A stretch of 64,000 nucleotides of DNA. Origin: an uncultured virus (IMG/VR IMGVR_UViG_3300037189_026208) (Duplodnaviria > Heunggongvirae > Uroviricota > Caudoviricetes). The stretch lies in IMG/VR virus record IMGVR_UViG_3300037189_026208, positions 1-64,000 of that record. One strand, 5' to 3'. The translations under genes were made by a program, and so were the position numbers. Shown one piece after another: positions 11,232 to 59,833 of this stretch; position 1 is the first letter of the stretch; every line of letters begins with the position of its first letter. The notes under the pieces are model-generated. The model saw only the letters and a program-made list of their open reading frames with translations. It ran no database searches and was not told the origin of the DNA.

Positions 11232-11710
11232 TTTTCTTCTAGAAGTTTGACAATTTCTCTTAAAGAGAGATCAATTGAGTTTAATACTTTATCTAGACCT
11301 GTATCAATTCTAGTAATTTTTTCACTATACTCTTCAAATGGTAAACTCATCTGAGGATCTGGAGGTATAGGCGGTAATACTTGTTGTACTGGTACGTAGT
11401 TTGGAATTTGTTGAGGTGTATTATTTACTTGAGCAGGTACTTGACCTGAAGAAAATATGTTTGAATGAGGCATTTCAATAGCCTGAGCTTCTCTCAAAGA
11501 GAGAGCTACTGCAGCTGCTACTTCCGGGGACGACGGTGTACCTACTACTGGTTTTGCAGAGTGCGACCCTCTAATAAAGCTTAGAGGGTCGATTTTATTC
11601 GCAGGTCCACCAGCTGGAAGAGATGTAGTATTTTCGTCTACTCTCTTAAGCTCAGAGCCAAATATCTTAGCAATAGTAGCTGTAGCTAATTGCTCGTCAA
11701 ATGTGCTCAT
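11216..11710 (-). CDS. Hypothetical Pro/Gln-rich protein
   Basis: ORF overlapping both neighbours; contains QMSLPF. Confidence 0.65.
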   Translation of the reverse strand: MSTFDEQLATATIAKIFGSELKRVDENTTSLPAGGPANKIDPLSFIRGSHSAKPVVGTPSSPEVAAAVALSLREAQAIEMPHSNIFSSGQVPAQVNNTPQQIPNYVPVQQVLPPIPPDPQMSLPFEEYSEKITRIDTGLDKVLNSIDLSLREIVKLLEEKWPTT

Positions 11711-12543
11711 TACTTAAGTTCTCTTCCAGCGTTAATAACGGCTACTGCAACCGCAGTATGAATGGATTCGTAGTGATTAACAACTACTGAGTAGTCCTTA
11801 ATACGGTTATCAAGCTCCTTATCGAGTTCTACGGCTACCTTACGTACCATATCCTCAACAAACACCGGATTCTCATACATGAGCTCGGTCTGATAAGCCT
11901 CATCAACTCGCTTAAGGGCGTTAATAATAGGTGCTGAAGCACTCTTCTCAACAATATCAATAAGATCTTCAATCCACATGATACCCTTTGACTCGTCAAT
12001 CTCAACTGTAACATCAGCTACAGAACGTTGATTATGGGCGCCGTAATCAGAGATCTCCTTAGAGCAAGGACAGAGTGACGCGTACATTACATTAACAGTT
12101 AGGTACAGACGCTCCTTACCATCAATAAGACGACCTTCCATATTACCGCGGTAGTCCATATGAGATTCAATACCAGAGACAGGAGCCTTACGCTTAAGGA
12201 AGTAATCAAACTTAATCTTGACGTACGCATTATCTGACTTCAGACGAGACTTACACTCGTGAAGAAGATCCTTAATAACCTCGTGTACGTAATAACCGTC
12301 TTTCTGTAGTACCTCTTCAATAAGGATACGATAACGGGACATATTAGTACCTTTATTCTCTGAAGTAAGATCAGTATACATACTGAACTTACCTGAACCT
12401 TCATTAACAGTACCGTCCTTTCTAATAATCTTTACAGGCAACGTAGCGTCGCGTGTACCTACCTTAGGGATGTACTTGTTAGGGAACCCGTCCTTAGTAT
12501 TCTGGATGTCGGGGATATCAGCGTTAGTTTTGATTCTAGGCAT
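11710..12543 (-). CDS. folE2: GTP cyclohydrolase IB (FolE2)
   Basis: PDIQ, KGTNMSR, KAPVSG, SLCPCSKEISDYGAHNQRS, LKRVDE, NPVFVEDMVR, ESIH. Confidence 0.96.
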   Translation of the reverse strand: MPRIKTNADIPDIQNTKDGFPNKYIPKVGTRDATLPVKIIRKDGTVNEGSGKFSMYTDLTSENKGTNMSRYRILIEEVLQKDGYYVHEVIKDLLHECKSRLKSDNAYVKIKFDYFLKRKAPVSGIESHMDYRGNMEGRLIDGKERLYLTVNVMYASLCPCSKEISDYGAHNQRSVADVTVEIDESKGIMWIEDLIDIVEKSASAPIINALKRVDEAYQTELMYENPVFVEDMVRKVAVELDKELDNRIKDYSVVVNHYESIHTAVAVAVINAGRELK

Positions 12544-17365: not shown

Positions 17366-18295
17366 CTACTGCCCCATTGCTTTATTTGTGTATTTGTTCA
17401 CGTTGAACAAAGCTTCGGGTAGTAGATCGGCTCTAGAAGCTCTTGCAGGATTAATATCCAGTGAACCTCTACGGGAGTAAAGAAGAGTAACACAGCAATC
17501 AGTTACTTCAGGATGCTTCATAATAGTTGTAAATAGTTTCTCAGCACAAAACTCATGAAATTCATTAACTTCACGGAGAGATACAATCTGCTTAAAAAGA
17601 GACTCCGGATCAACTGCCATGCCGTCTTTTGTCTTAATAAGAATATATGCTGCACCTGTATCCTTCTGTTTAGTATGACGGCAACGTGAACGAAGAGCAT
17701 TAGTAAACCAGCGACTTGTTACGGGCTGATTGTCTTCTGGATGCAACTTATAAAACTTAAGATGATCTACCTGAGAGGAATAGTCAGTTATTTCAATAGA
17801 ATCTGCTTTACCGTAGAGTTCCCAATAAAGATCGAGATATTCATCTTCGAACGCATTATACGAATTTACATCTGAACCTGACGGAAAGAAGCAAACATGT
17901 ACAGGTGTCTGTAGAGCAGCTTCAAGATCTTTCTTAACTTGCTCTTCGTAGTTAACGATAGCTTCCTTAATAGAACTACCCATCTTACACATATCAAAAG
18001 AATTGAGATAGAGTTTAGCAGACTTTGACTCTACCATAAACTTTGACTCAGCAGGGTATGTATACTTTAACGTACCTGCTACAGGGTAGCCGTTATCGAG
18101 GAGAAATGTTGCTTCGTGGCAATGCCATGTATCAAAACCGACAAATTCATTGCCGGTAATACCGTGATCAGCTCTCGCTAATTCTCTTGGCATTGGATTA
18201 AGCAATGATGGATCAAATTGCTCGGTATAAATTGCGTACGAAGCTGAAGATCCAAGTGTCTTCGACGCAATATCAGTTAGGTTTGTTGTACTCAT
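17366..18295 (-). CDS. queF: NADPH-dependent preQ0 reductase, bimodular (type II) QueF
   Basis: VESKSAKLYLNSF QueF motif; LRSRC...QKDTG (catalytic Cys/Asp); EFHEFC; YSRRGSLDINP. Confidence 0.93.
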   Translation of the reverse strand: MSTTNLTDIASKTLGSSASYAIYTEQFDPSLLNPMPRELARADHGITGNEFVGFDTWHCHEATFLLDNGYPVAGTLKYTYPAESKFMVESKSAKLYLNSFDMCKMGSSIKEAIVNYEEQVKKDLEAALQTPVHVCFFPSGSDVNSYNAFEDEYLDLYWELYGKADSIEITDYSSQVDHLKFYKLHPEDNQPVTSRWFTNALRSRCRHTKQKDTGAAYILIKTKDGMAVDPESLFKQIVSLREVNEFHEFCAEKLFTTIMKHPEVTDCCVTLLYSRRGSLDINPARASRADLLPEALFNVNKYTNKAMGQ

Positions 18296-38438: not shown

Positions 38439-38957
38439 ATGTCTCAATACACATCTACTAAATTAATCGAGCTAGGCTCTTGTGCTTTTCGTCAATGGCG
38501 TGCTACCCACAGTCATTGCCAATATATTCACGGATATCGCTTAATGGCTAAGTTTTGGTTTGGTTGTGATTCTCTTGATGAGAAGAACTGGGCAGTTGAC
38601 TTTGGAGGTCTTAAGGAGCTTAAGAAGATTCTTAACAATCAGTTTGACCACACCCTTTGTGTTGCTCAGGATGACCCTCTCCTAGAGGAGTTTAAGAAGC
38701 TAGATGATATTGGAGGTGTTCAACTCCGTATTATGGAATCAGTCGGTGTTGAAAAAACAGCCGAATGGTGCTTTAAAACAGCTAATGAGTTTGTAAAAAA
38801 CCTAACACAGAATCGTTGCTGGGTAGAGAGTGTTGAAGTGTTCGAACACGAACAGAATTCTGCTATCTATTCTAAAGAAGATTTAACACTTAAAATAACA
38901 CCTTCAGTAACTTCAACATCAAATACATTTTATGCCTCAGACCGACCAGGAGTCTAA
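38439..38957 (+). CDS. queD: 6-carboxytetrahydropterin synthase
   Basis: HSHCQYIHGY, WAVDFGGLK, FDHT, EKTA, VEVFEHEQNSA. Confidence 0.93.
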   Translation: MSQYTSTKLIELGSCAFRQWRATHSHCQYIHGYRLMAKFWFGCDSLDEKNWAVDFGGLKELKKILNNQFDHTLCVAQDDPLLEEFKKLDDIGGVQLRIMESVGVEKTAEWCFKTANEFVKNLTQNRCWVESVEVFEHEQNSAIYSKEDLTLKITPSVTSTSNTFYASDRPGV

Positions 38958-39147
38958 ACCTCTACTACTTAAACCTTACGCACCTGTAACAGGGGATGTA
39001 TTTACAGAAGGTGAGTTCGGGTTTACTAAACTCGTAGCTTTACTTAGTGTACTTGTATATGCACTCATTTATAATATTATTTGTACACCTTTAGGGTGGA
39101 TTGGTATTGTAATATCTGCAATTGGGTATAAACTGATATCAAAATAA
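38932..39147 (+). CDS. Small membrane protein
   Basis: Two hydrophobic segments; fills the queD-queE gap. Confidence 0.6.
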   Translation: MPQTDQESKPLLLKPYAPVTGDVFTEGEFGFTKLVALLSVLVYALIYNIICTPLGWIGIVISAIGYKLISK

Positions 39148-39148
39148 T

Positions 39149-39979
39149 ATGGAAAATAATACATTAGAAATTTCAGAGCACTTCTACTCCGTACAATGTG
39201 AAGGTATCTCCACAGGTGTACCGGCGTATTTTATTCGTTTGAAAGGTTGTAATCTATCCTGTGGTTTTTCAGGTAAAGCTATTGTAGATCTTAAGCGTAA
39301 TCTTGAAGAAGTTGAAGGTTATGTAGTAGGTGGTAATATAACTGGTGATTTACACAGTGAAGGTAAGGCAACATGGACATGTGATTCAGCACCTGTCTGG
39401 CTCAGAGGTGCTCATACTACATACGAGCAGCTAGTACAATCTTGGGTTGATCAAGGTATCCTAGATTGGATTCTAGATGGTACAATTCATCTTATCTGGA
39501 CAGGAGGTGAACCTACAATACCTAAGCATCAAAAAGCAATTGTCGGTTTCTTGAAGTGGTTTGCTGACAAATATAAAACAGAAAAAGTTTATAGTGAGAT
39601 TGAAACTAACGGTTCAATTGTTATTGAAGATAGTCTTCTTACTTGGCTAGATCAGATTAATTGCTCGGTTAAGCTTCATAATTCAGGCATGGATAAAGAT
39701 AAGCGTATTAATGAACAGGCACTTCGCCGTATTAAGCTTCATCGCAATTATTCATTTAAGTTTGTAATCTCTGACGAGGAAGATTTAGTAGAAATTATTA
39801 GAGATTTTGTAGTACCTTTTGAAATACCTACTAACAGAATCTGTATGATGCCCGGACTAGATAGTCAAGAACATTACCATGAAAGGACACGTTTTGTTTT
39901 AGAGATGGCTAAGAAGTATGGTTTTAGAGGTTTATCACGTTTACATATTAGTGCTTGGGATCAAGCAACAGGTGTATGA
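39149..39979 (+). CDS. queE: 7-carboxy-7-deazaguanine synthase (radical SAM)
   Basis: EHFYSVQCEG, FIRLKGCNLSC..CDS, TGGEP, EIETNG, SVKL, KFV, RLH. Confidence 0.93.
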   Translation: MENNTLEISEHFYSVQCEGISTGVPAYFIRLKGCNLSCGFSGKAIVDLKRNLEEVEGYVVGGNITGDLHSEGKATWTCDSAPVWLRGAHTTYEQLVQSWVDQGILDWILDGTIHLIWTGGEPTIPKHQKAIVGFLKWFADKYKTEKVYSEIETNGSIVIEDSLLTWLDQINCSVKLHNSGMDKDKRINEQALRRIKLHRNYSFKFVISDEEDLVEIIRDFVVPFEIPTNRICMMPGLDSQEHYHERTRFVLEMAKKYGFRGLSRLHISAWDQATGV

Positions 39980-51545: not shown

Positions 51546-51761
51546 TTATTTGTTCTTGTTATACTCGTTTTGAGCTTTGATTTGCTTACTCTTACGAACT
51601 TTGATTTTTTCTTTAGCTTTCTTTTTTTGGTTAGGTGTGAGAAAATTACGGTGTAACCTTACTTCATCAAGAATACCTTCTCGGTCAATCTTTGTCTTAA
51701 GCTTCTTAAGTGCGCGTTCTAGGCCATTCGGCTCTCTGTTGTTTACGTATACTTGTACCAT
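51546..51761 (-). CDS. rpsU: Ribosomal protein bS21
   Basis: VQVYV...LERALKKLK.K..REGIL.EVR..R.F..P..KKK. Confidence 0.88.
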   Translation of the reverse strand: MVQVYVNNREPNGLERALKKLKTKIDREGILDEVRLHRNFLTPNQKKKAKEKIKVRKSKQIKAQNEYNKNK

Positions 51762-53003: not shown

Positions 53004-53399
53004 TTATATACCTTTTGCAGCAGCGTGGTAACGAGCTCTCTTAGCAACGTCACAAATAGCACTAGAAGCTACAGCAATCTTTTGTAACATCCAGGGCTCA
53101 ATACTCTCACCAGAAGAGAGAATATCATGAAGCTCTTTAGCGTTTGTAAAGAGATCAAAAAGGTTTGTCTTGGCCATTTCTAATTCCTCGCTTTCATGCT
53201 CTTCCGGAGACTCTTCACATTCACAACCTTCTTCTTCAGGTTCTTCACCTAAATCCATAACAATTACACCAGCATCCTTGCCTTCATCATCCGTTACTTC
53301 AACAGGTGTTGTATCATGCTCAATATCTGTAGGTTCATTATGATCTTTTTGTCTTGAGGAAATATAAGCCTCAGCAATTAAGCGAAATTCCTTGTCCAT
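53004..53399 (-). CDS. Acidic late protein, probable internal head protein
   Basis: MDKEFRLIAEAY leader; EMAK..L......EL...L.....IEPWMLQKIAVA domain resembling T4-like phage virion proteins. Confidence 0.7.
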   Translation of the reverse strand: MDKEFRLIAEAYISSRQKDHNEPTDIEHDTTPVEVTDDEGKDAGVIVMDLGEEPEEEGCECEESPEEHESEELEMAKTNLFDLFTNAKELHDILSSGESIEPWMLQKIAVASSAICDVAKRARYHAAAKGI

Positions 53400-53400
53400 A

Positions 53401-53766
53401 TTAAGCTACGCTTCCGTCCTCTGGACAATTTCCTGTCTCGTGATCTCCGCCACAAGTCGTACAGACCTTAGCGGTTACTTTATCATCTTCGCCGGCTGTA
53501 CCAGCAACTTCTTCTTTTTCTTTCTTTGTAAGAAGAGCGTCAAGATCAGCGATGGTCTTACCGTGGTCGTTAACAATCTTAACAATATCTTCTTTTTCGT
53601 CCTTAAGCTTTAGATAGTCCTTAGAACCGTGCTCAGCTTTAAGTAAGGAACGAACTACTTTGTAGTAACGTCTTGCAAGCTTTTTGTTAACAACTTTATC
53701 AGTAGCTGTACCTTCGAGGATGCGCTGATAAGCTTCCGCTAATAATACTTCATCTTTATTGATCAT
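53401..53766 (-). CDS. Late protein with leader and a C-terminal zinc knuckle
   Basis: MINKDEVLLAEAYQRILE; CTTCGGDHETGNC. Confidence 0.7.
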   Translation of the reverse strand: MINKDEVLLAEAYQRILEGTATDKVVNKKLARRYYKVVRSLLKAEHGSKDYLKLKDEKEDIVKIVNDHGKTIADLDALLTKKEKEEVAGTAGEDDKVTAKVCTTCGGDHETGNCPEDGSVA

Positions 53767-53775
53767 ATATTATAT

Positions 53776-53997
53776 TTAATCTTTCCTATGGGACTTCTTC
53801 CACCATTTGCACCAGGCACTAGGCTTAATGTCCCCGCTAACAGCAGAACATTTATTTGGTGATCTCCACATTGTACATTGATCACATCGCTGTCCCTTAA
53901 CAGTGTGAGCTACATAACCCGCTTCTGCTTTAGAGTGTTTTGCTTTAGCTTCACTTAACATCTCTAAAGCTAATTTTATAACTTTATCGAAGCTCAT
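53776..53997 (-). CDS. High-potential iron-sulfur protein (HiPIP)-like
   Basis: SKAEAGY....KGQRCDQC..W..PNKCSAVSG.I.PSAWC..W matches the HiPIP four-Cys pattern. Confidence 0.85.
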   Translation of the reverse strand: MSFDKVIKLALEMLSEAKAKHSKAEAGYVAHTVKGQRCDQCTMWRSPNKCSAVSGDIKPSAWCKWWKKSHRKD

Positions 53998-54428
53998 CCG
54001 CCTTGCTGTGCTGCCTTCATATATGAATGAAGTTGTTCGATATCCTTAGGTATAGCTTTTTTAATAACTTCAGGAATTGGTTTACTTAATAACAATAATG
54101 ATTGTGCGTAATCTTTAGCTGTATCTCTATCTTTTGAAATAGCTATAATTTCGTGTGTAGTAAGTTGAGCACCATTTATATATTTACGATACGCTCTTTC
54201 AGCGTCATAACGTGTATTATCTTCTTTTGGTGTGTGAGGTTTGGCAACTTCTTCTGTTTCACCTGGACCTCTAGGGTTAGGCTCTTCAGGGTTTCCAGCA
54301 GGTCTAGCTTTAGCAGGATGTGCTAAACCTAATGAAGCAGCCATGGCTGCAGTTGCCATAGCTTTTGAAAAAGGTCCTTCTTGAACCAATTCATATGCTT
54401 CTGTTATTTTTTGTATATCTTTACTCAT
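53994..54428 (-). CDS. Late protein with leader followed by a signal-peptide-like stretch
   Basis: MSKDIQKITEAYELVQE then GPFSKAMATAAMAASLGLAHPAKA. Confidence 0.7.
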   Translation of the reverse strand: MSKDIQKITEAYELVQEGPFSKAMATAAMAASLGLAHPAKARPAGNPEEPNPRGPGETEEVAKPHTPKEDNTRYDAERAYRKYINGAQLTTHEIIAISKDRDTAKDYAQSLLLLSKPIPEVIKKAIPKDIEQLHSYMKAAQQGG

Positions 54429-54429
54429 A

Positions 54430-54684
54430 TTAATCTTTATTTACTACGCTGTCAAAACCTGCACTCCAGAGATCAGCAGCTTTTTTATTACCGCCTTTAT
54501 GAGGATTTTCAGGCATAACACCATCTCTGAGATATCTTCTTCCAGCTAAAGCGCCATGGGCAAAATGATCAGATGCATCTGAGGCTGCGTGATAATCAGT
54601 AGGAGTTCTTGACATAAGTTTTTCGTATTCTTGTCTACTAATAGTATCGTATGCTTCGTTTAAAGCGGTTTCGAATTTCGACAT
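54430..54684 (-). CDS. Late protein with leader and a ribosome modulation factor-like motif
   Basis: MSKFETALNEAY; G..AG........NP........W..GF. Confidence 0.6.
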   Translation of the reverse strand: MSKFETALNEAYDTISRQEYEKLMSRTPTDYHAASDASDHFAHGALAGRRYLRDGVMPENPHKGGNKKAADLWSAGFDSVVNKD

Positions 54685-55034: not shown

Positions 55035-56000
55035 TTACGTTATAGCATCAATTAATCCACCGAAATTTTCTTCGGTCTCCGGATCAATTATACCTTTTAG
55101 TAAATCAGATTCTATTGGATAAAGATCATTATACTCGACTACATATTTTTCACTTTTATCTTTAGCAAAATCAGGCTCAACAAGAGCTTGTCGTACGCGA
55201 TGTCTTGCCCAAGGACTCATTTCCACAGCTGGTTTAATGTATGTAGCAAGTTCACCTTTCCATAAATTATCTCTATCACTTCTTAAACAAACTCTATCTC
55301 CCTCTTTAAGGTTGTTTCTCCATGTTTCTAAATCAAAATCCTTACTCTCTGTAACACTTAGTAAATCACTAAATGAATCTTTAGTATCTTTTGTTAATGA
55401 CTTTCTTAATTCCCAATCAATAGGAAATAATTTACTTAGATTGTATCTAGTATAGCCTTGAGAGCCATCTATATTGTGACCTTCTTTAACAAGTAAAGCA
55501 ATATCTCTAAAACTATCAACTACTTCTAAATATGTAGCTTTAAATCCACGGACAGTAAAAGGTCTAACTTCTACCTTATCGCCTTTCTTTAAGTTACTTC
55601 GCCAAGTTCTAAGATATTCGTAATCCTCTTGAGTCTCTTCTGATACTATATCGATTAAATCGCTAAATGAATTTTCTGTATCCTTAGATAGAGAGTTCTT
55701 TAATTCATATTTTTTTAAAGCTTTTTGTACTTTATCGGTTACAACCTTTCTAACTGTATAGTAACTATCAGGTACATGTAAGCTTCTATACCATTCATCA
55801 AAATCTTTCATATGAACAAACCAACCATTACCTGATTTAGCATCTCTAGTCCATATAGCAGGTTTTCCGTCTATAATAATATCCCAACAAGGATTCCACA
55901 TCTGACCTCCCATTAAGGTTTCAAAAGGACCCTTAACAATCTCTACTTTAAGATCATTAGCTCTTCTTAATTCCTCTAATATAAGATCATTAAATCTCAC
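55035..56000 (-). CDS. Three-module member of the repeat-tailed gene family
   Basis: MRFNDLILEE leader; three copies of the family motif (ELKNSLSKDTENSFSDLIDIV, ELRKSLTKDTKDSFSDLLSV, LLKGIIDPETEENFGGLIDAI); modules 2 and 3 look SH3/KOW-like (LKKGDKV, LKEGDRV). Confidence 0.85.
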   Translation of the reverse strand: MRFNDLILEELRRANDLKVEIVKGPFETLMGGQMWNPCWDIIIDGKPAIWTRDAKSGNGWFVHMKDFDEWYRSLHVPDSYYTVRKVVTDKVQKALKKYELKNSLSKDTENSFSDLIDIVSEETQEDYEYLRTWRSNLKKGDKVEVRPFTVRGFKATYLEVVDSFRDIALLVKEGHNIDGSQGYTRYNLSKLFPIDWELRKSLTKDTKDSFSDLLSVTESKDFDLETWRNNLKEGDRVCLRSDRDNLWKGELATYIKPAVEMSPWARHRVRQALVEPDFAKDKSEKYVVEYNDLYPIESDLLKGIIDPETEENFGGLIDAIT

Positions 56001-56139
56001 GGTTTATTATTTATCAATATCTGCTCTAGCGCGGCGAGGTTTCTCCTAATTTCCCCGCTTAGTGCATCCGTCTCGGCCCCAAAGTTTTTGAAAATATTTT
56101 ATACTCTAAATTGAATTCCGATTATTAATTCTAGGGAAA

Positions 56140-56424
56140 TTAAAGAATATCTAATAGATCTCCGAACGTCTCGCCTGTCTCCTTGGACAGATGCCGCTTT
56201 ATATTATGATCTTCTATAGCTTTGGCAATAGCGTTCTTTACTCCTTGCTTCTTATAGAGTTCAAGTCCCCAAACAGTGAGGTATTGGTTAGTCTCCAAAT
56301 ATCTAAAACCATCTGGCTCCTCGCCTATTGTTAACTTCTGGCCATCTACCTCCACGTCATAGCCTATATAGCCTTCGTCCTTAAGGTCGTAAGGACCTCT
56401 TAAGAATTTTACTTTATAAGACAT
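56140..56424 (-). CDS. Repeat-tailed family member 10
   Basis: Ends AIEDHNIKRHLSKETGETFGDLLDIL. Confidence 0.85.
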   Translation of the reverse strand: MSYKVKFLRGPYDLKDEGYIGYDVEVDGQKLTIGEEPDGFRYLETNQYLTVWGLELYKKQGVKNAIAKAIEDHNIKRHLSKETGETFGDLLDIL

Positions 56425-56767
56425 CTAAGAACCCTCCGAATGAATCTCTTGTTTCTGGAGACATAGCTTGAAGTGTCTCCCAATTCTTAATAGCTTTAGC
56501 TACCGGACCGTTTTCAGTATCTTTTCCATCCCAAAGGTAAATCTCTGGCATATAAAGAACATAAGGGTATTCACCACGTTCTGGAGTATAAATGACAAAA
56601 CTATTTCGATCTTCCGTATCCTCTTTAATATGCATTAACCAGGCACCTTCTATATCTTCGGGAAGTGTATAGCCTCGCTTTAGATACTCATTGATCTCTT
56701 CATCGGTAGCCCTTCTTAGGACTTTATAGAAGTTACCAGACTCTAGAAAGAACTTGTTAAAGGACAT
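56414..56767 (-). CDS. Repeat-tailed family member 9
   Basis: MSFNKFFLES...AMSPETRDSFGGFLDVL. Confidence 0.85.
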   Translation of the reverse strand: MSFNKFFLESGNFYKVLRRATDEEINEYLKRGYTLPEDIEGAWLMHIKEDTEDRNSFVIYTPERGEYPYVLYMPEIYLWDGKDTENGPVAKAIKNWETLQAMSPETRDSFGGFLDVL

Positions 56768-57131
56768 CTAATAAACCTCCAAATGAATCTTTAGTTTCTT
56801 TGTCTACACTATTTAAAAGATTATAATCTTCTATAGCCTTGTCTATTTGTTCTCTAAACGGATCATCATAGACGTCGGTATGATTGGGGATAATCTTAGG
56901 ATAGGGAGGTAGCCAATGCCCTCTATAATGACCTGGTGGCCAGCAGTAATAGCATATGCACTCCTTGTCCTTATACTTCATTTGTAGCTTATAGACATTC
57001 TCTTCCCAATCTTTTATATCCAGCTCATTACGAAAGAGATGGGTCATTGGTCCCTCAAGTATCTTTACTTCAATTCCTCTATTATCACCGTAATTGATAA
57101 GAGCTTCTTTTATTAATCGATCAAAGTACAT
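56757..57131 (-). CDS. Repeat-tailed family member 8
   Basis: MYFDRLIKEAL...SVDKETKDSFGGLLDVL. Confidence 0.85.
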   Translation of the reverse strand: MYFDRLIKEALINYGDNRGIEVKILEGPMTHLFRNELDIKDWEENVYKLQMKYKDKECICYYCWPPGHYRGHWLPPYPKIIPNHTDVYDDPFREQIDKAIEDYNLLNSVDKETKDSFGGLLDVL

Positions 57132-57537
57132 CTAATAATCCTCCAAATGAATCTCTTGTATCTTTACTTAATCCTTGCTTAAAATTCCATTGATCTATAA
57201 GAGCTGGAACTGTTTCACGTAACATCTTATTAAGGAATTGAGCTCTCGGGGCTGACTTGTGTTGTCTACCGACCATACGTTTAAACCAAGTAGGTGTTTG
57301 AATAACAGTATAATAAGCTGTTGTCTTCTGAAGCTCTCTATCTTTATCCTCTATCTTCTTAACCCACCAAGTACCTCCTTTACTATCCTTTAAACAAAAG
57401 ACCTCTTTATAGTCTTTATGTGGAGGTTGTTCAAGATGAAGCTCACCAGTAAGACTATCCATAAAGCCGGTACCTACAACCTTAAATGTTGTATTCATCC
57501 AGTCCAGTTCTTCTAATACTAATTGATTAAAGTACAT
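57121..57537 (-). CDS. Repeat-tailed family member 7
   Basis: MYFNQLVLEEL...GLSKDTRDSFGGLLDVL. Confidence 0.85.
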   Translation of the reverse strand: MYFNQLVLEELDWMNTTFKVVGTGFMDSLTGELHLEQPPHKDYKEVFCLKDSKGGTWWVKKIEDKDRELQKTTAYYTVIQTPTWFKRMVGRQHKSAPRAQFLNKMLRETVPALIDQWNFKQGLSKDTRDSFGGLLDVL

Positions 57538-57889
57538 CTAATAATCCTCCGAATGTTTTCTTTGTATCATTACTTAATAGCTTTCTAAACTCCCAATCAT
57601 TAATAGCATCAGGAACTAACCCGGAGAACCCCATAAAGGTTACATCTCCGCTATCATGAATGTTGTAGCTAGTATATCCTTCCTTCTCGTTATCTTTAAA
57701 CCGTACAACAAGACGCGGCCAATACCCAGGTCTATTACCATCATCGTCTACCACCCAGGCACCTTTTATATACTCTTCCCTTACCCAGCGATAGCCATAA
57801 CCGTATATCCTCTGAAGATCTTCTTCTGTAGCGTCCCGAACGACGTGATACTTCTCTAAAGCTTCTAATACTATTTGATTAAAGTACAT
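57527..57889 (-). CDS. Repeat-tailed family member 6
   Basis: MYFNQIVLEAL...LLSNDTKKTFGGLLDVL. Confidence 0.85.
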   Translation of the reverse strand: MYFNQIVLEALEKYHVVRDATEEDLQRIYGYGYRWVREEYIKGAWVVDDDGNRPGYWPRLVVRFKDNEKEGYTSYNIHDSGDVTFMGFSGLVPDAINDWEFRKLLSNDTKKTFGGLLDVL

Positions 57890-58220
57890 CTAATAATCCT
57901 CCGAAAGTTTCTCTTGTATCCTTTGATAAGGATTGTTTTAATTCCCAATCTTTCATAGCTTTAATAATAAGGCTATCAAGTGTATCAATATCAATACCGA
58001 ATAGCTTTTTACATTGATCTCGTTCATATACAGCATTATCCGGATCAATTCCTGAAGTATTTAAACCATCGAGATAAAGCATACATTGATCATCTTTGAC
58101 ATAACGAAAGAAACACTTCTTACCATTTACAGTTATATTATAATGAAGGTCTCCGATAGCCCAATCTGGAAGATCTTTGTCTTCTATAACATTAATAATC
58201 TTAATAGAAGGTTGTTTCAT
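57879..58220 (-). CDS. Repeat-tailed family member 5 (no leader)
   Basis: MKQPSIKII...WELKQSLSKDTRETFGGLLDVL. Confidence 0.85.
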   Translation of the reverse strand: MKQPSIKIINVIEDKDLPDWAIGDLHYNITVNGKKCFFRYVKDDQCMLYLDGLNTSGIDPDNAVYERDQCKKLFGIDIDTLDSLIIKAMKDWELKQSLSKDTRETFGGLLDVL

Positions 58221-58228
58221 ATAGGCTA

Positions 58229-58765
58229 TTAGAGGGCGTCTAGGAAGTCCTTAAATGATCCTTGAGTCTTAGTATCGGTTTGTCCTAGAGCTAAGAAGTT
58301 CTTTTCTTTATGTTTTATCCACCAGTTTACTAGCTTATCTAGCTTCTCGGCAAATGCGTAATGATAACCTTTCTGCCTCCATACTGGATCCTCTGTATTA
58401 TTATCATAATGAACGAAGTAACTTATATATGGATATAAAACATTCGGTACCCAAGAGGCAGCTGCAGCAATATGGGTAGGTCCTGTTTCATCTTCAAGTC
58501 TTCTAGTATCATCAATACAAGTCATATAATATGTCTTTGTATCTGTCCATGTAGCAAGCTCCCTAGTCTTATGTAATATACCATTAGGTTCAGCCTCCTT
58601 CGGTAGTCCTTCTTTAATGTCATATATCTCAAAGTTATGAAAGGGCATTGAATCAACCTCATCCGTTGACCAGACCGATCGTTCAAAGCCTTGCTTTCTA
58701 TCGGGGTTTCTTGATCGAGGTACATTAGCTACTAGAGCCTCTTTGAAGTAATCTTTAAATGACAT
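58229..58765 (-). CDS. Repeat-tailed family member 4 (divergent tail)
   Basis: MSFKDYFKEAL...TDTKTQGSFKDFLDAL. Confidence 0.82.
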   Translation of the reverse strand: MSFKDYFKEALVANVPRSRNPDRKQGFERSVWSTDEVDSMPFHNFEIYDIKEGLPKEAEPNGILHKTRELATWTDTKTYYMTCIDDTRRLEDETGPTHIAAAASWVPNVLYPYISYFVHYDNNTEDPVWRQKGYHYAFAEKLDKLVNWWIKHKEKNFLALGQTDTKTQGSFKDFLDAL

Positions 58766-59102
58766 CGATTAAACCTCCAAATGATTGTTCAGTATCCTTT
58801 GATAGATTGTTTTTTAATTCCCAAGATATAAGCTGTTTGTATATAGGAAAGTCCGGATAGATATACCCTTCAAAGCCATAATTAGGTAAGCTATACACCA
58901 TTAAGTTTTCATTGTTAAGATCTTCAAATAAGTCCTTACAACGTATGACTAGAACATCAGATACATCGGTATAGTTTCTAATTACCCATCCTCTAGTTAA
59001 TTTTAAATCCTCATCATATTGAGAAGATAAACCATCGAGTATTTTCTGAGGAGCTAATTCTATCTTCTCCTTCTTTGATTCGTAGAATAACTTAAATGAC
59101 AT
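58755..59102 (-). CDS. Repeat-tailed family member 3
   Basis: MSFKLFYES...WELKNNLSKDTEQSFGGLIDVI. Confidence 0.85.
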   Translation of the reverse strand: MSFKLFYESKKEKIELAPQKILDGLSSQYDEDLKLTRGWVIRNYTDVSDVLVIRCKDLFEDLNNENLMVYSLPNYGFEGYIYPDFPIYKQLISWELKNNLSKDTEQSFGGLIDVI

Positions 59103-59490
59103 CTAGTAGCCCTCCGAAAGTATCTCTTGTCTTATCTGGTAGATGCCTCCTTTGTTCAAAGTCATCTATAGCCTTAACTACTCTCCTACCTTCTTCTCTA
59201 TAGGCTGGTATATCCCGCTCGGTAAAGGCACCACATCTATCCATACCTTCTAAAGTATAAACATCATAACCTTTTACATACGTAATAGATCTTATAGCAA
59301 TATATCTAGCAATATATCTATCAGTTCCTGATTCCTTCTTTATAGTAAGAAGATAGAGAGGGTCATCTTTTCTCCAAGGATACTTCCTACGAAAGACCCC
59401 CTCATACCCCTCAGGCACTGCTTCTACAGTTATATTATCTCTTTGAAGCTTATAAGGCTCTTTAGATTCGTAGAATAACTTAAATGACAT
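59092..59490 (-). CDS. Repeat-tailed family member 2
   Basis: MSFKLFYES...HLPDKTRDTFGGLLDVI. Confidence 0.85.
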   Translation of the reverse strand: MSFKLFYESKEPYKLQRDNITVEAVPEGYEGVFRRKYPWRKDDPLYLLTIKKESGTDRYIARYIAIRSITYVKGYDVYTLEGMDRCGAFTERDIPAYREEGRRVVKAIDDFEQRRHLPDKTRDTFGGLLDVI

Positions 59491-59833
59491 CTAATAGACC
59501 TCCAAATGAATCTTTAGTATCGTCTGATAGATTATTTTTAAACTCCCATTTCTTAATAGCTTTAGCAAGAGGTGAGTTTATATCCTCATGACTAATAAGG
59601 TCAATAGTGTTAGGGTCTAATGTGTAAATTGAATATGTCTTCCAGTCAGGAATATATGCTACAATAACCTGTCCTTCATCATAGTCATCGTTCATATAAA
59701 CGATCCATGCCTGTTCAATATCTCCCTTCTCCGTATCAAGATCTCTTGTAAGATCTTTAAGTTCTTTCTTTGTAAATCTTCTAAGAACTTTGTATGAGTC
59801 GTTTGACTCTGTAAAAAATTGTTTAAATGACAT
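59480..59833 (-). CDS. Repeat-tailed family member 1
   Basis: MSFKQFFTES...WEFKNNLSDDTKDSFGGLLDVI. Confidence 0.85.
   Translation of the reverse strand: MSFKQFFTESNDSYKVLRRFTKKELKDLTRDLDTEKGDIEQAWIVYMNDDYDEGQVIVAYIPDWKTYSIYTLDPNTIDLISHEDINSPLAKAIKKWEFKNNLSDDTKDSFGGLLDVI

What the first reader, a model, noticed from the sequence alone, without database searches (positions are those of the whole stretch)
53776..53997. HiPIP iron-sulfur protein carrying a capsid-type leader instead of a Tat signal
Seen: a complete HiPIP-like pattern (Y, CxxC, C..V.G.I.P..WC..W) preceded by MSFDKVIKLALEMLSE and no twin-arginine peptide. Known: cellular HiPIPs are Tat-exported periplasmic 4Fe-4S electron carriers. 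Inference: a redox or iron-carrying protein packed into the head and delivered at infection, which I do not know as a described phage function.
Basis: partly seen in the sequence, partly recalled or inferred. Interest (0 to 1): 0.7.

Follow-up and report, generated by a model that had tools for sequence, protein, structure and literature searches.

The report
Head-packed iron-sulfur cassette in phages
A large T4-like phage encodes a tiny protein with the sequence and predicted fold of bacterial iron-sulfur electron carriers (HiPIPs) but no export signal; its leader, and the cut-site motifs that flank the same domain in other phages, suggest it is likely packed into the virus head and injected with the DNA, a role I found no paper describing.

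Summary
Confirmed. 53776-53997 (−) encodes 73 aa: a 16-aa leader plus a 57-aa domain with PioC's four cluster cysteines at identical spacing. Its predicted fold (pLDDT 93.5) matches only HiPIPs (18 of 18 Foldseek PDB hits). There is no Tat signal.

A near-identical 218-kb record encodes a T4 gp21-type protease, gp23 and a scaffold rich in [LI]xE sites. All 29 close homologues place a [LIVFY]xE motif 20-25 residues before the first Cys behind swapped leaders; one phage homologue's leader matches T4's capsid-targeting sequence at 9 of 10 residues. In fusions and jumbo-phage polyproteins the domain is flanked by such motifs on both sides. In other phages it is fused to portal, MuF or head protease, or to Acb1, InPase or Nudix.

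Head packaging is likely (~0.8) and a 4Fe-4S cluster likely (~0.85); neither is shown. Function is open. My best guess (~0.3) is a one-electron redox shield for the DNA; bulk iron delivery is unlikely.

No paper found in my searches; UniProt auto-names the homologue in cultured cyanophage S-SRM01, where it can be tested. This scan noted the same thing before in three other genomes.

The parts
53776..53997 (-). ORF, 73 aa (P0001): leader plus PioC-like HiPIP domain
53950..53997 (-). 16-aa leader, predicted capsid-targeting propeptide (F3, V6/I7; ends L14-S15-E16)
   Evidence: compared with the T4 IPII/IPIII leader
53950..53958 (-). L-S-E, predicted prohead-protease (gp21-type) cut after E16, 22 residues before the first Cys
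   Evidence: L/I-X-E rule from PMC9026906
53779..53949 (-). predicted mature 57-aa domain, 6.5 kDa, net charge +9, HiPIP fold
53809..53916 (-). cluster-binding core: Y28, C38, C41, W44, C50, W62, C63 (= PioC Y12, C22, C25, F28, C34, W46, C47)
53994..54428 (-). upstream 144-aa gene with an 'EAY'-type leader; overlaps the HiPIP start by ATGA, so likely co-transcribed and translationally coupled
54438..54443 (-). TAAATA, putative late promoter core of the unit that holds the HiPIP gene
53401..53766 (-). downstream 121-aa gene with an 'EAY'-type leader; its TAAATA (53773-53778) includes the HiPIP stop codon

Best explanation
The gene encodes a minimal HiPIP-fold domain with four PioC-spaced cysteines behind a 16-residue leader; it is likely made late, likely loaded with a [4Fe-4S] cluster in the host cytoplasm, likely docked into the prohead by its leader, predicted to be cut free at L-S-E by the phage's gp21-type protease, and would then travel with the DNA and act as a one-electron redox shield against oxidative damage. 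Shown: ORF, cysteine spacing, no Tat motif, a gp21-family protease and LxE-rich scaffold in the same phage, flanking motifs and fusion partners in relatives. Predicted: the fold. Inferred: cluster (about 0.85), packaging (about 0.8), ejection (about 0.65), redox-shield function (about 0.3, the weakest step). The confidence given is for the whole chain.
For: Cluster: Cys spacing 3/9/13 equals PioC's ligands C22/C25/C34/C47 (PMC7462912) and holds in 147 of 155 domains. Y12, four Cys and V37 are invariant in 81 sequences. The model has pLDDT 93.5; Foldseek gives 18 of 18 HiPIP hits and the top 7 of 11 VIA hits are HiPIPs. Packaging: G001, 100% identical to the window over 20,219 nt, has Peptidase_S77, gp23 and a scaffold candidate (T4_CASP, E=1.6e-4) with 15 [LI]xE in 324 aa against a proteome rate of 1.04%. 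A strict [LI]xE precedes the domain in 23 of 29 close homologues, a relaxed one in 29 of 29. Homologue L132 starts MKSYQEFIAE; T4 IPII/IPIII start MKTYQEFIAE. In polyproteins [ILV]xE sits at −22 in 13 of 15 and +38 in 15 of 15 flank contexts. In fusions with an upstream site, a downstream site follows in 21 of 25, versus 5 of 33 without one. 8 of 56 long Tat-less hits are fused to portal, MuF or XkdF protease, and 2 to DUF2213. Function: the domain recurs in unrelated phages, which suits a universal chemical target, and DNA-bound [4Fe4S]3+/2+ couples are known (PMC7005299).
Against: No virion proteomics, metal analysis or expression data. Net charge of other Tat-less domains ranges from −7 to +9, mean +2.2, so DNA binding is not a family-wide trait. 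Portal fusions would give only about 12 copies per head, few for a sacrificial antioxidant. An Fe-S cluster beside DNA could also cause damage if it breaks down (own knowledge). This protein's leader is 16 aa and shares only a pattern with the T4 sequence. The gene has no TAAATA of its own and no conserved position among relatives. Some stand-alone relatives (L108, L141, L161) lie among genes with no evident head role (judged by eye). Sequences in the counts are related, so the counts are not independent events.
Confidence: 0.32

Rival explanations
1. Packaged and injected Fe-S protein that works like T4 IPI: a small rigid inhibitor or decoy of a host defence protein, the cluster serving for stability or as a mimic.
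For: Same packaging evidence. Partners include Acb1, InPase, Nudix, ParB and cytidyltransferase and amidoligase, the kinds of effectors Iyer et al. describe as head-delivered. IPI is a small folded anti-restriction protein.
Against: The domain is conserved across phages of very different hosts and keeps the cellular PioC surface motifs, unlike a fast-evolving lineage-specific inhibitor. No target is known.
Confidence: 0.25
2. Structural internal head protein: a small basic module that condenses DNA or fills the core, with the cluster only holding the fold.
For: The mature domain here has net charge +9 and pI 9.8; its clade averages +6.4. Cytoplasmic HiPIP-like Fe-S subunits exist in glycyl radical enzymes (VIA hits 4pkf_B, 2y8n_B at Z 3-4; their role is recalled). 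The cluster in lambda gpL was hypothesised to be stabilising, and its function is still open.
Against: Many relatives are near neutral or acidic. Gene position varies widely among relatives, unlike a core head gene. An Fe-S cofactor is a costly way to fold 57 residues.
Confidence: 0.18
3. Not packaged: a cytoplasmic or membrane-side electron carrier used during infection (an auxiliary metabolic gene), the leader being incidental.
For: No direct virion evidence. The S-SRM01 gene lies among small unknown genes, and cyanophage homologues lack TAAATA in the 45 nt upstream. The leader regex also picks up some clearly non-head genes such as nrdB and ssb.
Against: Leaders are swapped yet always end in a cut-site motif at the domain edge. 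One is a 9-of-10 match to the T4 sequence. Flanks occur on both sides in fusions, and there are portal, MuF and protease fusions.
Confidence: 0.12
4. Packaged HiPIP-fold domain that binds zinc instead of a [4Fe-4S] cluster.
For: Four-Cys domains often bind Zn (own knowledge).
Against: Spacing and aromatic shell (Y12, W/F28, W46) match PioC exactly. All 18 Foldseek PDB matches are HiPIPs and all 10 profile matches too.
Confidence: 0.08
5. Iron delivery: the virion brings iron to the host as a nutrient.
For: Four Fe per molecule if the cluster is present.
Against: At T4 internal-protein copy numbers (about 360, PMC9026906 table) that is about 1,400 Fe atoms, and about 50 for portal fusions. That is small against a cell's iron quota (recalled, 1e4-1e6).
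Confidence: 0.05

Closest known systems
PioC of Rhodopseudomonas palustris TIE-1 (PDB 6xyv), the smallest HiPIP
   Same: Same length class, Cys spacing 3/9/13, Y12, P31, V37, I41 and W46; VIA Z 7.8 over 54 residues, rmsd 2.4.
   Different: HiPIPs are described as Tat-exported periplasmic carriers. This one has no RR, a cleavable head-type leader, and Met at Cys2+2 (141 of 148 Tat-less domains, 0 of 12 Tat domains; biased by how the set was collected).
T4 internal proteins IPI/IPII/IPIII with capsid targeting sequence (CTS)
   Same: Short N-terminal propeptide ending in L/I-x-E and a small cargo; gp21-type protease in the genome. Homologue leaders match T4's up to 9 of 10 residues.
   Different: The cargo is an Fe-S fold. 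This leader is 16 aa and only pattern-like. The cargo also occurs as an internal cassette of polyproteins.
Phage polyvalent proteins and MuF/portal-fused effectors (Iyer et al. 2017, PMC5512222; 2022, PMC9503650)
   Same: Same effector slots and partner domains (portal, MuF, InPase, 2H/Acb1, Nudix, ParB).
   Different: 'HiPIP' occurs 0 times in either main text (supplements not seen). Processing there is proposed to be by embedded metallopeptidases; here the flanks point to the prohead protease.
Fe-S clusters in virion tail tips (lambda gpL, RcGTA gp13)
   Same: Precedent for an Fe-S cluster in a phage particle (PMC10721106).
   Different: A different protein, on the outer tail tip; not described as head cargo.
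UniProt A0A879R316, Synechococcus phage S-SRM01 (QPX48026.1)
   Same: Direct homologue in a cultured phage, auto-named 'High potential iron-sulfur proteins family profile domain-containing protein'; leader MKSFQEFLFE.
   Different: Automatic label only. GenBank calls it hypothetical, and the genome paper's main text has 0 hits for HiPIP, iron or mass spectrometry.

Membership tests
HiPIP (PF01355; PioC-like) | Four Cys ligands in HiPIP spacing | tested here: met
   C38/C41/C50/C63 = PioC C22/C25/C34/C47
HiPIP (PF01355; PioC-like) | Aromatic and hydrophobic shell around the cluster | tested here: met
   Y28, W44, V53, I57, W62 align with PioC and other HiPIPs; importance of the shell from PMC10879576
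HiPIP (PF01355; PioC-like) | HiPIP fold | tested here: met
   Predicted model, pLDDT 93.5; 18 of 18 Foldseek hits, best E=4.9e-3, TM 0.78; VIA Z 8.3, rmsd 1.0 over 49 residues
HiPIP (PF01355; PioC-like) | Pfam gathering score of 22 bits | tested here: inconclusive
   20 bits for P0001; several homologues pass
HiPIP (PF01355; PioC-like) | [4Fe-4S]3+/2+ cluster at +50 to +500 mV | not testable with these tools
   Needs Fe analysis, EPR and voltammetry
Canonical periplasmic HiPIP electron carrier | Tat signal peptide and periplasmic export | tested here: not met
   No RR in P0001; RR in 1 of 29 homologues, in an acidic context. Cellular relatives carry RR
T4-type CTS internal head protein | Short N-terminal propeptide ending in L/I-x-E | tested here: met
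   L14-S15-E16; strict motif in 23 of 29 homologues, relaxed in 29 of 29
T4-type CTS internal head protein | gp21 protease, gp22-type scaffold and gp23 in the same phage | tested here: met
   the scaffold hit is below cut-off (E=1.6e-4) but syntenic and LxE-rich
T4-type CTS internal head protein | Late expression | tested here: inconclusive
   TAAATA precedes the overlapping upstream gene, not this one; it directly precedes homologues L006, L012, L013, L015
T4-type CTS internal head protein | Present and cleaved in virions; ejected into the host | not testable with these tools
   No proteomics for this phage; none in the S-SRM01 paper
Polyvalent protein (Iyer et al.) | Multidomain polypeptide of unrelated effector domains | tested here: not met
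   P0001 is single-domain; the feature is met by homologue-bearing polyproteins L035-L061 and several hits

The most novel reading that the evidence does not exclude
Many unrelated tailed phages share a HiPIP-derived [4Fe-4S] cassette that they load into the head by three routes (capsid-targeting leader, protease-cut polyprotein, fusion to portal/MuF/protease) and deliver as a redox-active cofactor protein. It would protect the genome by electron transfer or disarm a host defence by redox chemistry, a class of injected effector I found no report of.
Probability: 0.35. Interest if true: 0.85.

Novelty: new variant of a known kind. Interest (0 to 1): 0.62.

Why it matters
Known head-delivered phage proteins are nucleic-acid enzymes, nucleotide-processing enzymes or protein inhibitors. 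A redox metalloprotein as head cargo would add a new kind of chemistry to virions and could bear on how phage particles survive oxidation or blunt host defence. It would also move HiPIPs outside the periplasm. The claim can be tested directly, because a cultured cyanophage (S-SRM01) carries a homologue with a near-T4 leader and the 57-residue domain can be produced by the published PioC route. The flank pattern also suggests that jumbo-phage polyproteins are cut into cassettes by the prohead protease.

Tried and rejected
- First fold from the 29-sequence alignment with leader: pLDDT 51, unusable; replaced by the 81-sequence mature-domain alignment.
- PHROGs: no family for P0001 or its neighbours. 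NCBIfam: only a weak Iro hit, 26 of 100 bits.
- Cellular genomes: a GTDB scan with the close-family patterns gave 1 confirmed match among 22 candidates, a 19-residue piece at E=4e-4 that I did not examine. It only tests near relatives.
- Locus scans with the broad alignments could not run for lack of conserved stretches, so genomic context of the Tat-bearing relatives is unseen.
- Tree of 160 domains over 47 columns: mostly unresolved, quick method only. 11 of 12 Tat domains group at support 83; no origin or direction of transfer is claimed.
- No RNA holder was listed; this is not evidence either way.
- The scaffold and S21 had no tblastn match among cultured phages. The host is unresolved.
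- Sigma-70 promoter scan: no excess over shuffles.
- TAAATA versus leader association is weak: 16 of 39 against 67 of 278, p=0.03.
- ESM Atlas: three nearest clusters 89-100% viral, scores 0.89-0.90, a lead only.
- No complex prediction was sent, since no specific partner is claimed.
- Literature: search listings for HiPIP+phage, high potential iron-sulfur+viral+virus (42), iron-sulfur cluster+virion+bacteriophage+capsid (37), HiPIP+prophage+portal (112), phage polyprotein/prohead protease (91) and HiPIP+DNA charge transport (101) showed no title or abstract opening on a phage HiPIP. The library lacks most subscription papers.

Full report
Observation. The − strand of 53776-53997 encodes a 73-aa protein with the stated leader and Cys pattern and no twin arginine. 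Pfam HIPIP scores 20 bits, under the 22-bit cut-off. The best solved relative is PioC, E=2.2e-5. There are 28 other close homologues at 57-82% identity and 61 viral loci, so the gene is real.

The phage. The window holds T4-like genes; sheath, tube, large terminase and polymerase were recognised by eye. The IMG/VR record G001 (218,400 nt, CheckV 100%) is identical to the window over the 20,219 nt compared. It encodes a gp21-family protease (E=5.6e-30) and gp23 (E=1.2e-90). Between them lies a 324-aa scaffold candidate (T4_CASP E=1.6e-4, below cut-off). It starts M-N-F-K-E-I-L and has 15 [LI]xE motifs where the proteome rate of 1.04% predicts about 3. T4 gp21 cuts after L/I-X-E, shreds the scaffold, and removes 10-19-residue capsid-targeting propeptides from internal proteins (PMC9026906, passages and table; PMC5694885, passages). 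The host is unknown; a Verru_Chthon-like pilin is a weak hint of Verrucomicrobia (35 of 51 bits).

The domain is a minimal HiPIP. PioC binds its cluster with C22, C25, C34 and C47 (PMC7462912, first third of the text read). Counting from residue 17, the phage protein has cysteines at exactly these numbers. The 3/9/13 spacing holds in 147 of 155 domains collected. In 81 aligned sequences Y12, the four Cys and V37 are invariant, and that profile hits 10 PDB sequences at E<=1, all HiPIPs. The mature domain folds at pLDDT 93.5; an earlier run with leader and a shallow alignment failed at 51. All 18 Foldseek PDB matches are HiPIPs, though none reaches E<=0.001. The top 7 of 11 VIA matches are HiPIPs, best Z 8.3 at rmsd 1.0 over 49 residues, followed by small subunits of glycyl radical enzymes at Z 2.4-3.9. 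The metal itself is untested.

The leader. Among the 29 close homologues the leaders fall into several unrelated types, yet a [LI]xE ends 20-26 residues before the first Cys in 23 of 29, and a [LIVFY]xE in 29 of 29. RR occurs in 1 of 29. In P0001 the site is L14-S15-E16, leaving 57 residues, 6.5 kDa, net charge +9. T4 IPII and IPIII begin MKTYQEFIAE. The homologue in locus L132 begins MKSYQEFIAE, and the one in cultured cyanophage S-SRM01 begins MKSFQEFLFE. A loose leader pattern, defined after seeing the data, fits 39 of 317 ORF starts in G001, against 13.5±3.5 in shuffles (maximum 27 in 1000). The 39 include the scaffold and also some false positives such as nrdB and ssb.

The domain behaves as a cut-out cassette. 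In 26 loci it lies inside ORFs of 675-2845 aa, some cut off by the locus end. The ones scanned carry an N-terminal cytidyltransferase or amidoligase domains. Across 15 distinct flank contexts, [ILV]xE sits at −22 in 13 (the other two read T-N-E) and at +38 in 15, with a background of 1.3% per residue, while the neighbouring modules vary. Two of 4 such records searched, all partial, also hold a gp21-family protease. Among proteins with at least 30 residues after the domain, a downstream [LIV]xE follows in 21 of 25 that have an upstream site and in 5 of 33 that do not; chance is about 21%. These sequences are related, so the counts overstate independence. One module is fused behind the HiPIP through L-K-E in P0008. 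In G001 it is a separate gene with its own leader, 70% identical.

Beyond T4-like phages. The profile search found 1,572 proteins at E<=0.001; I examined the top 150 only. Of 56 longer Tat-less hits scanned, 23 had another Pfam family: 8 portal, MuF or XkdF protease, 2 DUF2213 (head-protease-like, recalled), 1 Acb1, 3 InPase, 1 Nudix alone, 3 ParB alone (below cut-off), 3 GH19 and 2 other. None was a tail family. Viral structure matches add zeta-toxin-domain, SppA and prohead-protease fusions, and show that UniProt auto-names the S-SRM01 protein as a HiPIP domain. Stand-alone copies lie right after a portal gene (L084), between portal and major head genes (L087) or upstream of terminase (L117). 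Others (L108, L141, L161) show no evident head context. These are the slots and partners that Iyer et al. describe for head-delivered effectors (PMC5512222, PMC9503650, passages); neither main text mentions HiPIP, and their supplements were not seen.

Timing. TAAATA lies within 45 nt upstream of 83 of 317 G001 ORFs (background 2.3%). It precedes gp21, the scaffold, sheath and tube, but not polymerase, helicase, RecA, ssb or primase, nor gp23 or terminase. I read it as the late promoter, by analogy with T4 (recalled). The HiPIP gene lacks its own but overlaps by ATGA with an upstream gene that has one. Four stand-alone homologues and seven polyproteins have it directly upstream; the cyanophage homologues do not. 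Gene position is not conserved.

Mechanism. The protein is likely made late and loaded with [4Fe-4S] by host machinery. It is likely docked to the prohead core by the leader and predicted to be cut after E16. It would stay with the DNA and probably be ejected, being small like IPI, which is thought to pass the portal folded. What it then does is not shown. I commit, at about 0.3, to a one-electron redox shield for the DNA. The domain recurs across phages of very different hosts, which suits a chemical rather than a protein target; HiPIP clusters are buried from solvent (PMC10879576, passages); and DNA-bound [4Fe4S]3+/2+ couples are known (PMC7005299, passages). Against this, charge ranges from −7 to +9 outside this clade and portal fusions give only about 12 copies. 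An IPI-like inhibitor (0.25) and a structural filler (0.18) are close rivals. No packaging (0.12), zinc (0.08) and iron supply (0.05) are less likely.

Novelty. By sequence and predicted fold it belongs with the HiPIPs. It fails the Tat criterion of canonical periplasmic carriers and works, by inference, like a T4 internal protein. Fe-S clusters are known in tail tips (PMC10721106, passages). I found no paper on a head-targeted HiPIP (search listings; S-SRM01 paper passages). Earlier agents in this scan reached the same reading on three other genomes. That is not independent evidence, and my own reading was written down before I saw it. Verdict: real, new variant of a known kind, interest 0.62.

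Noticed in passing
L035-L061 (e.g. L039:8921-17458, L046:7211-13558): Large-phage ORFs of up to 2845 aa look like shuffled chains of modules (cytidyltransferase, HiPIP, amidoligase, unknowns) joined at [LIV]xE motifs, with their own leader ending F/L-x-E; likely processed by the prohead protease.
   Followed up: partly
L073:15949-16140 (G001): 63-aa basic gene with a T4-like leader; the same module is fused behind the HiPIP through an LxE junction in P0008/P0009/P0014/P0026. No family match.
   Followed up: partly
window 53004-54684: Four neighbouring small genes share an 'LxEAY'-type leader, which also heads HiPIP homologues P0021/23/24/27: a likely cluster of head-targeted proteins.
   Followed up: partly
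window 55035-59833: Array of about ten genes with MxF...E leaders and a shared C-terminal tail; noted earlier by the scan (e1-8130109).
   Followed up: no
window 51546-51761: Phage-encoded ribosomal protein S21 (Pfam E=8e-11, TIGR00030 above cut-off).
   Followed up: partly
window 11710-12543, 17366-18295, 38439-39979: Genes that look by eye like folE2, queF, queD and queE, suggesting 7-deazaguanine DNA modification; not scanned.
   Followed up: no
L069:1845-2279 (G001): Pilin-like gene most similar to Verru_Chthon cassette protein B (below cut-off); a hint of a Verrucomicrobia host.
   Followed up: partly
window 53884-53869 region (Met43): Met two residues after the second Cys in 141 of 148 Tat-less domains and 0 of 12 Tat-bearing ones; may mark the phage subfamily, but the set was seeded with Met-bearing sequences.
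   Followed up: partly
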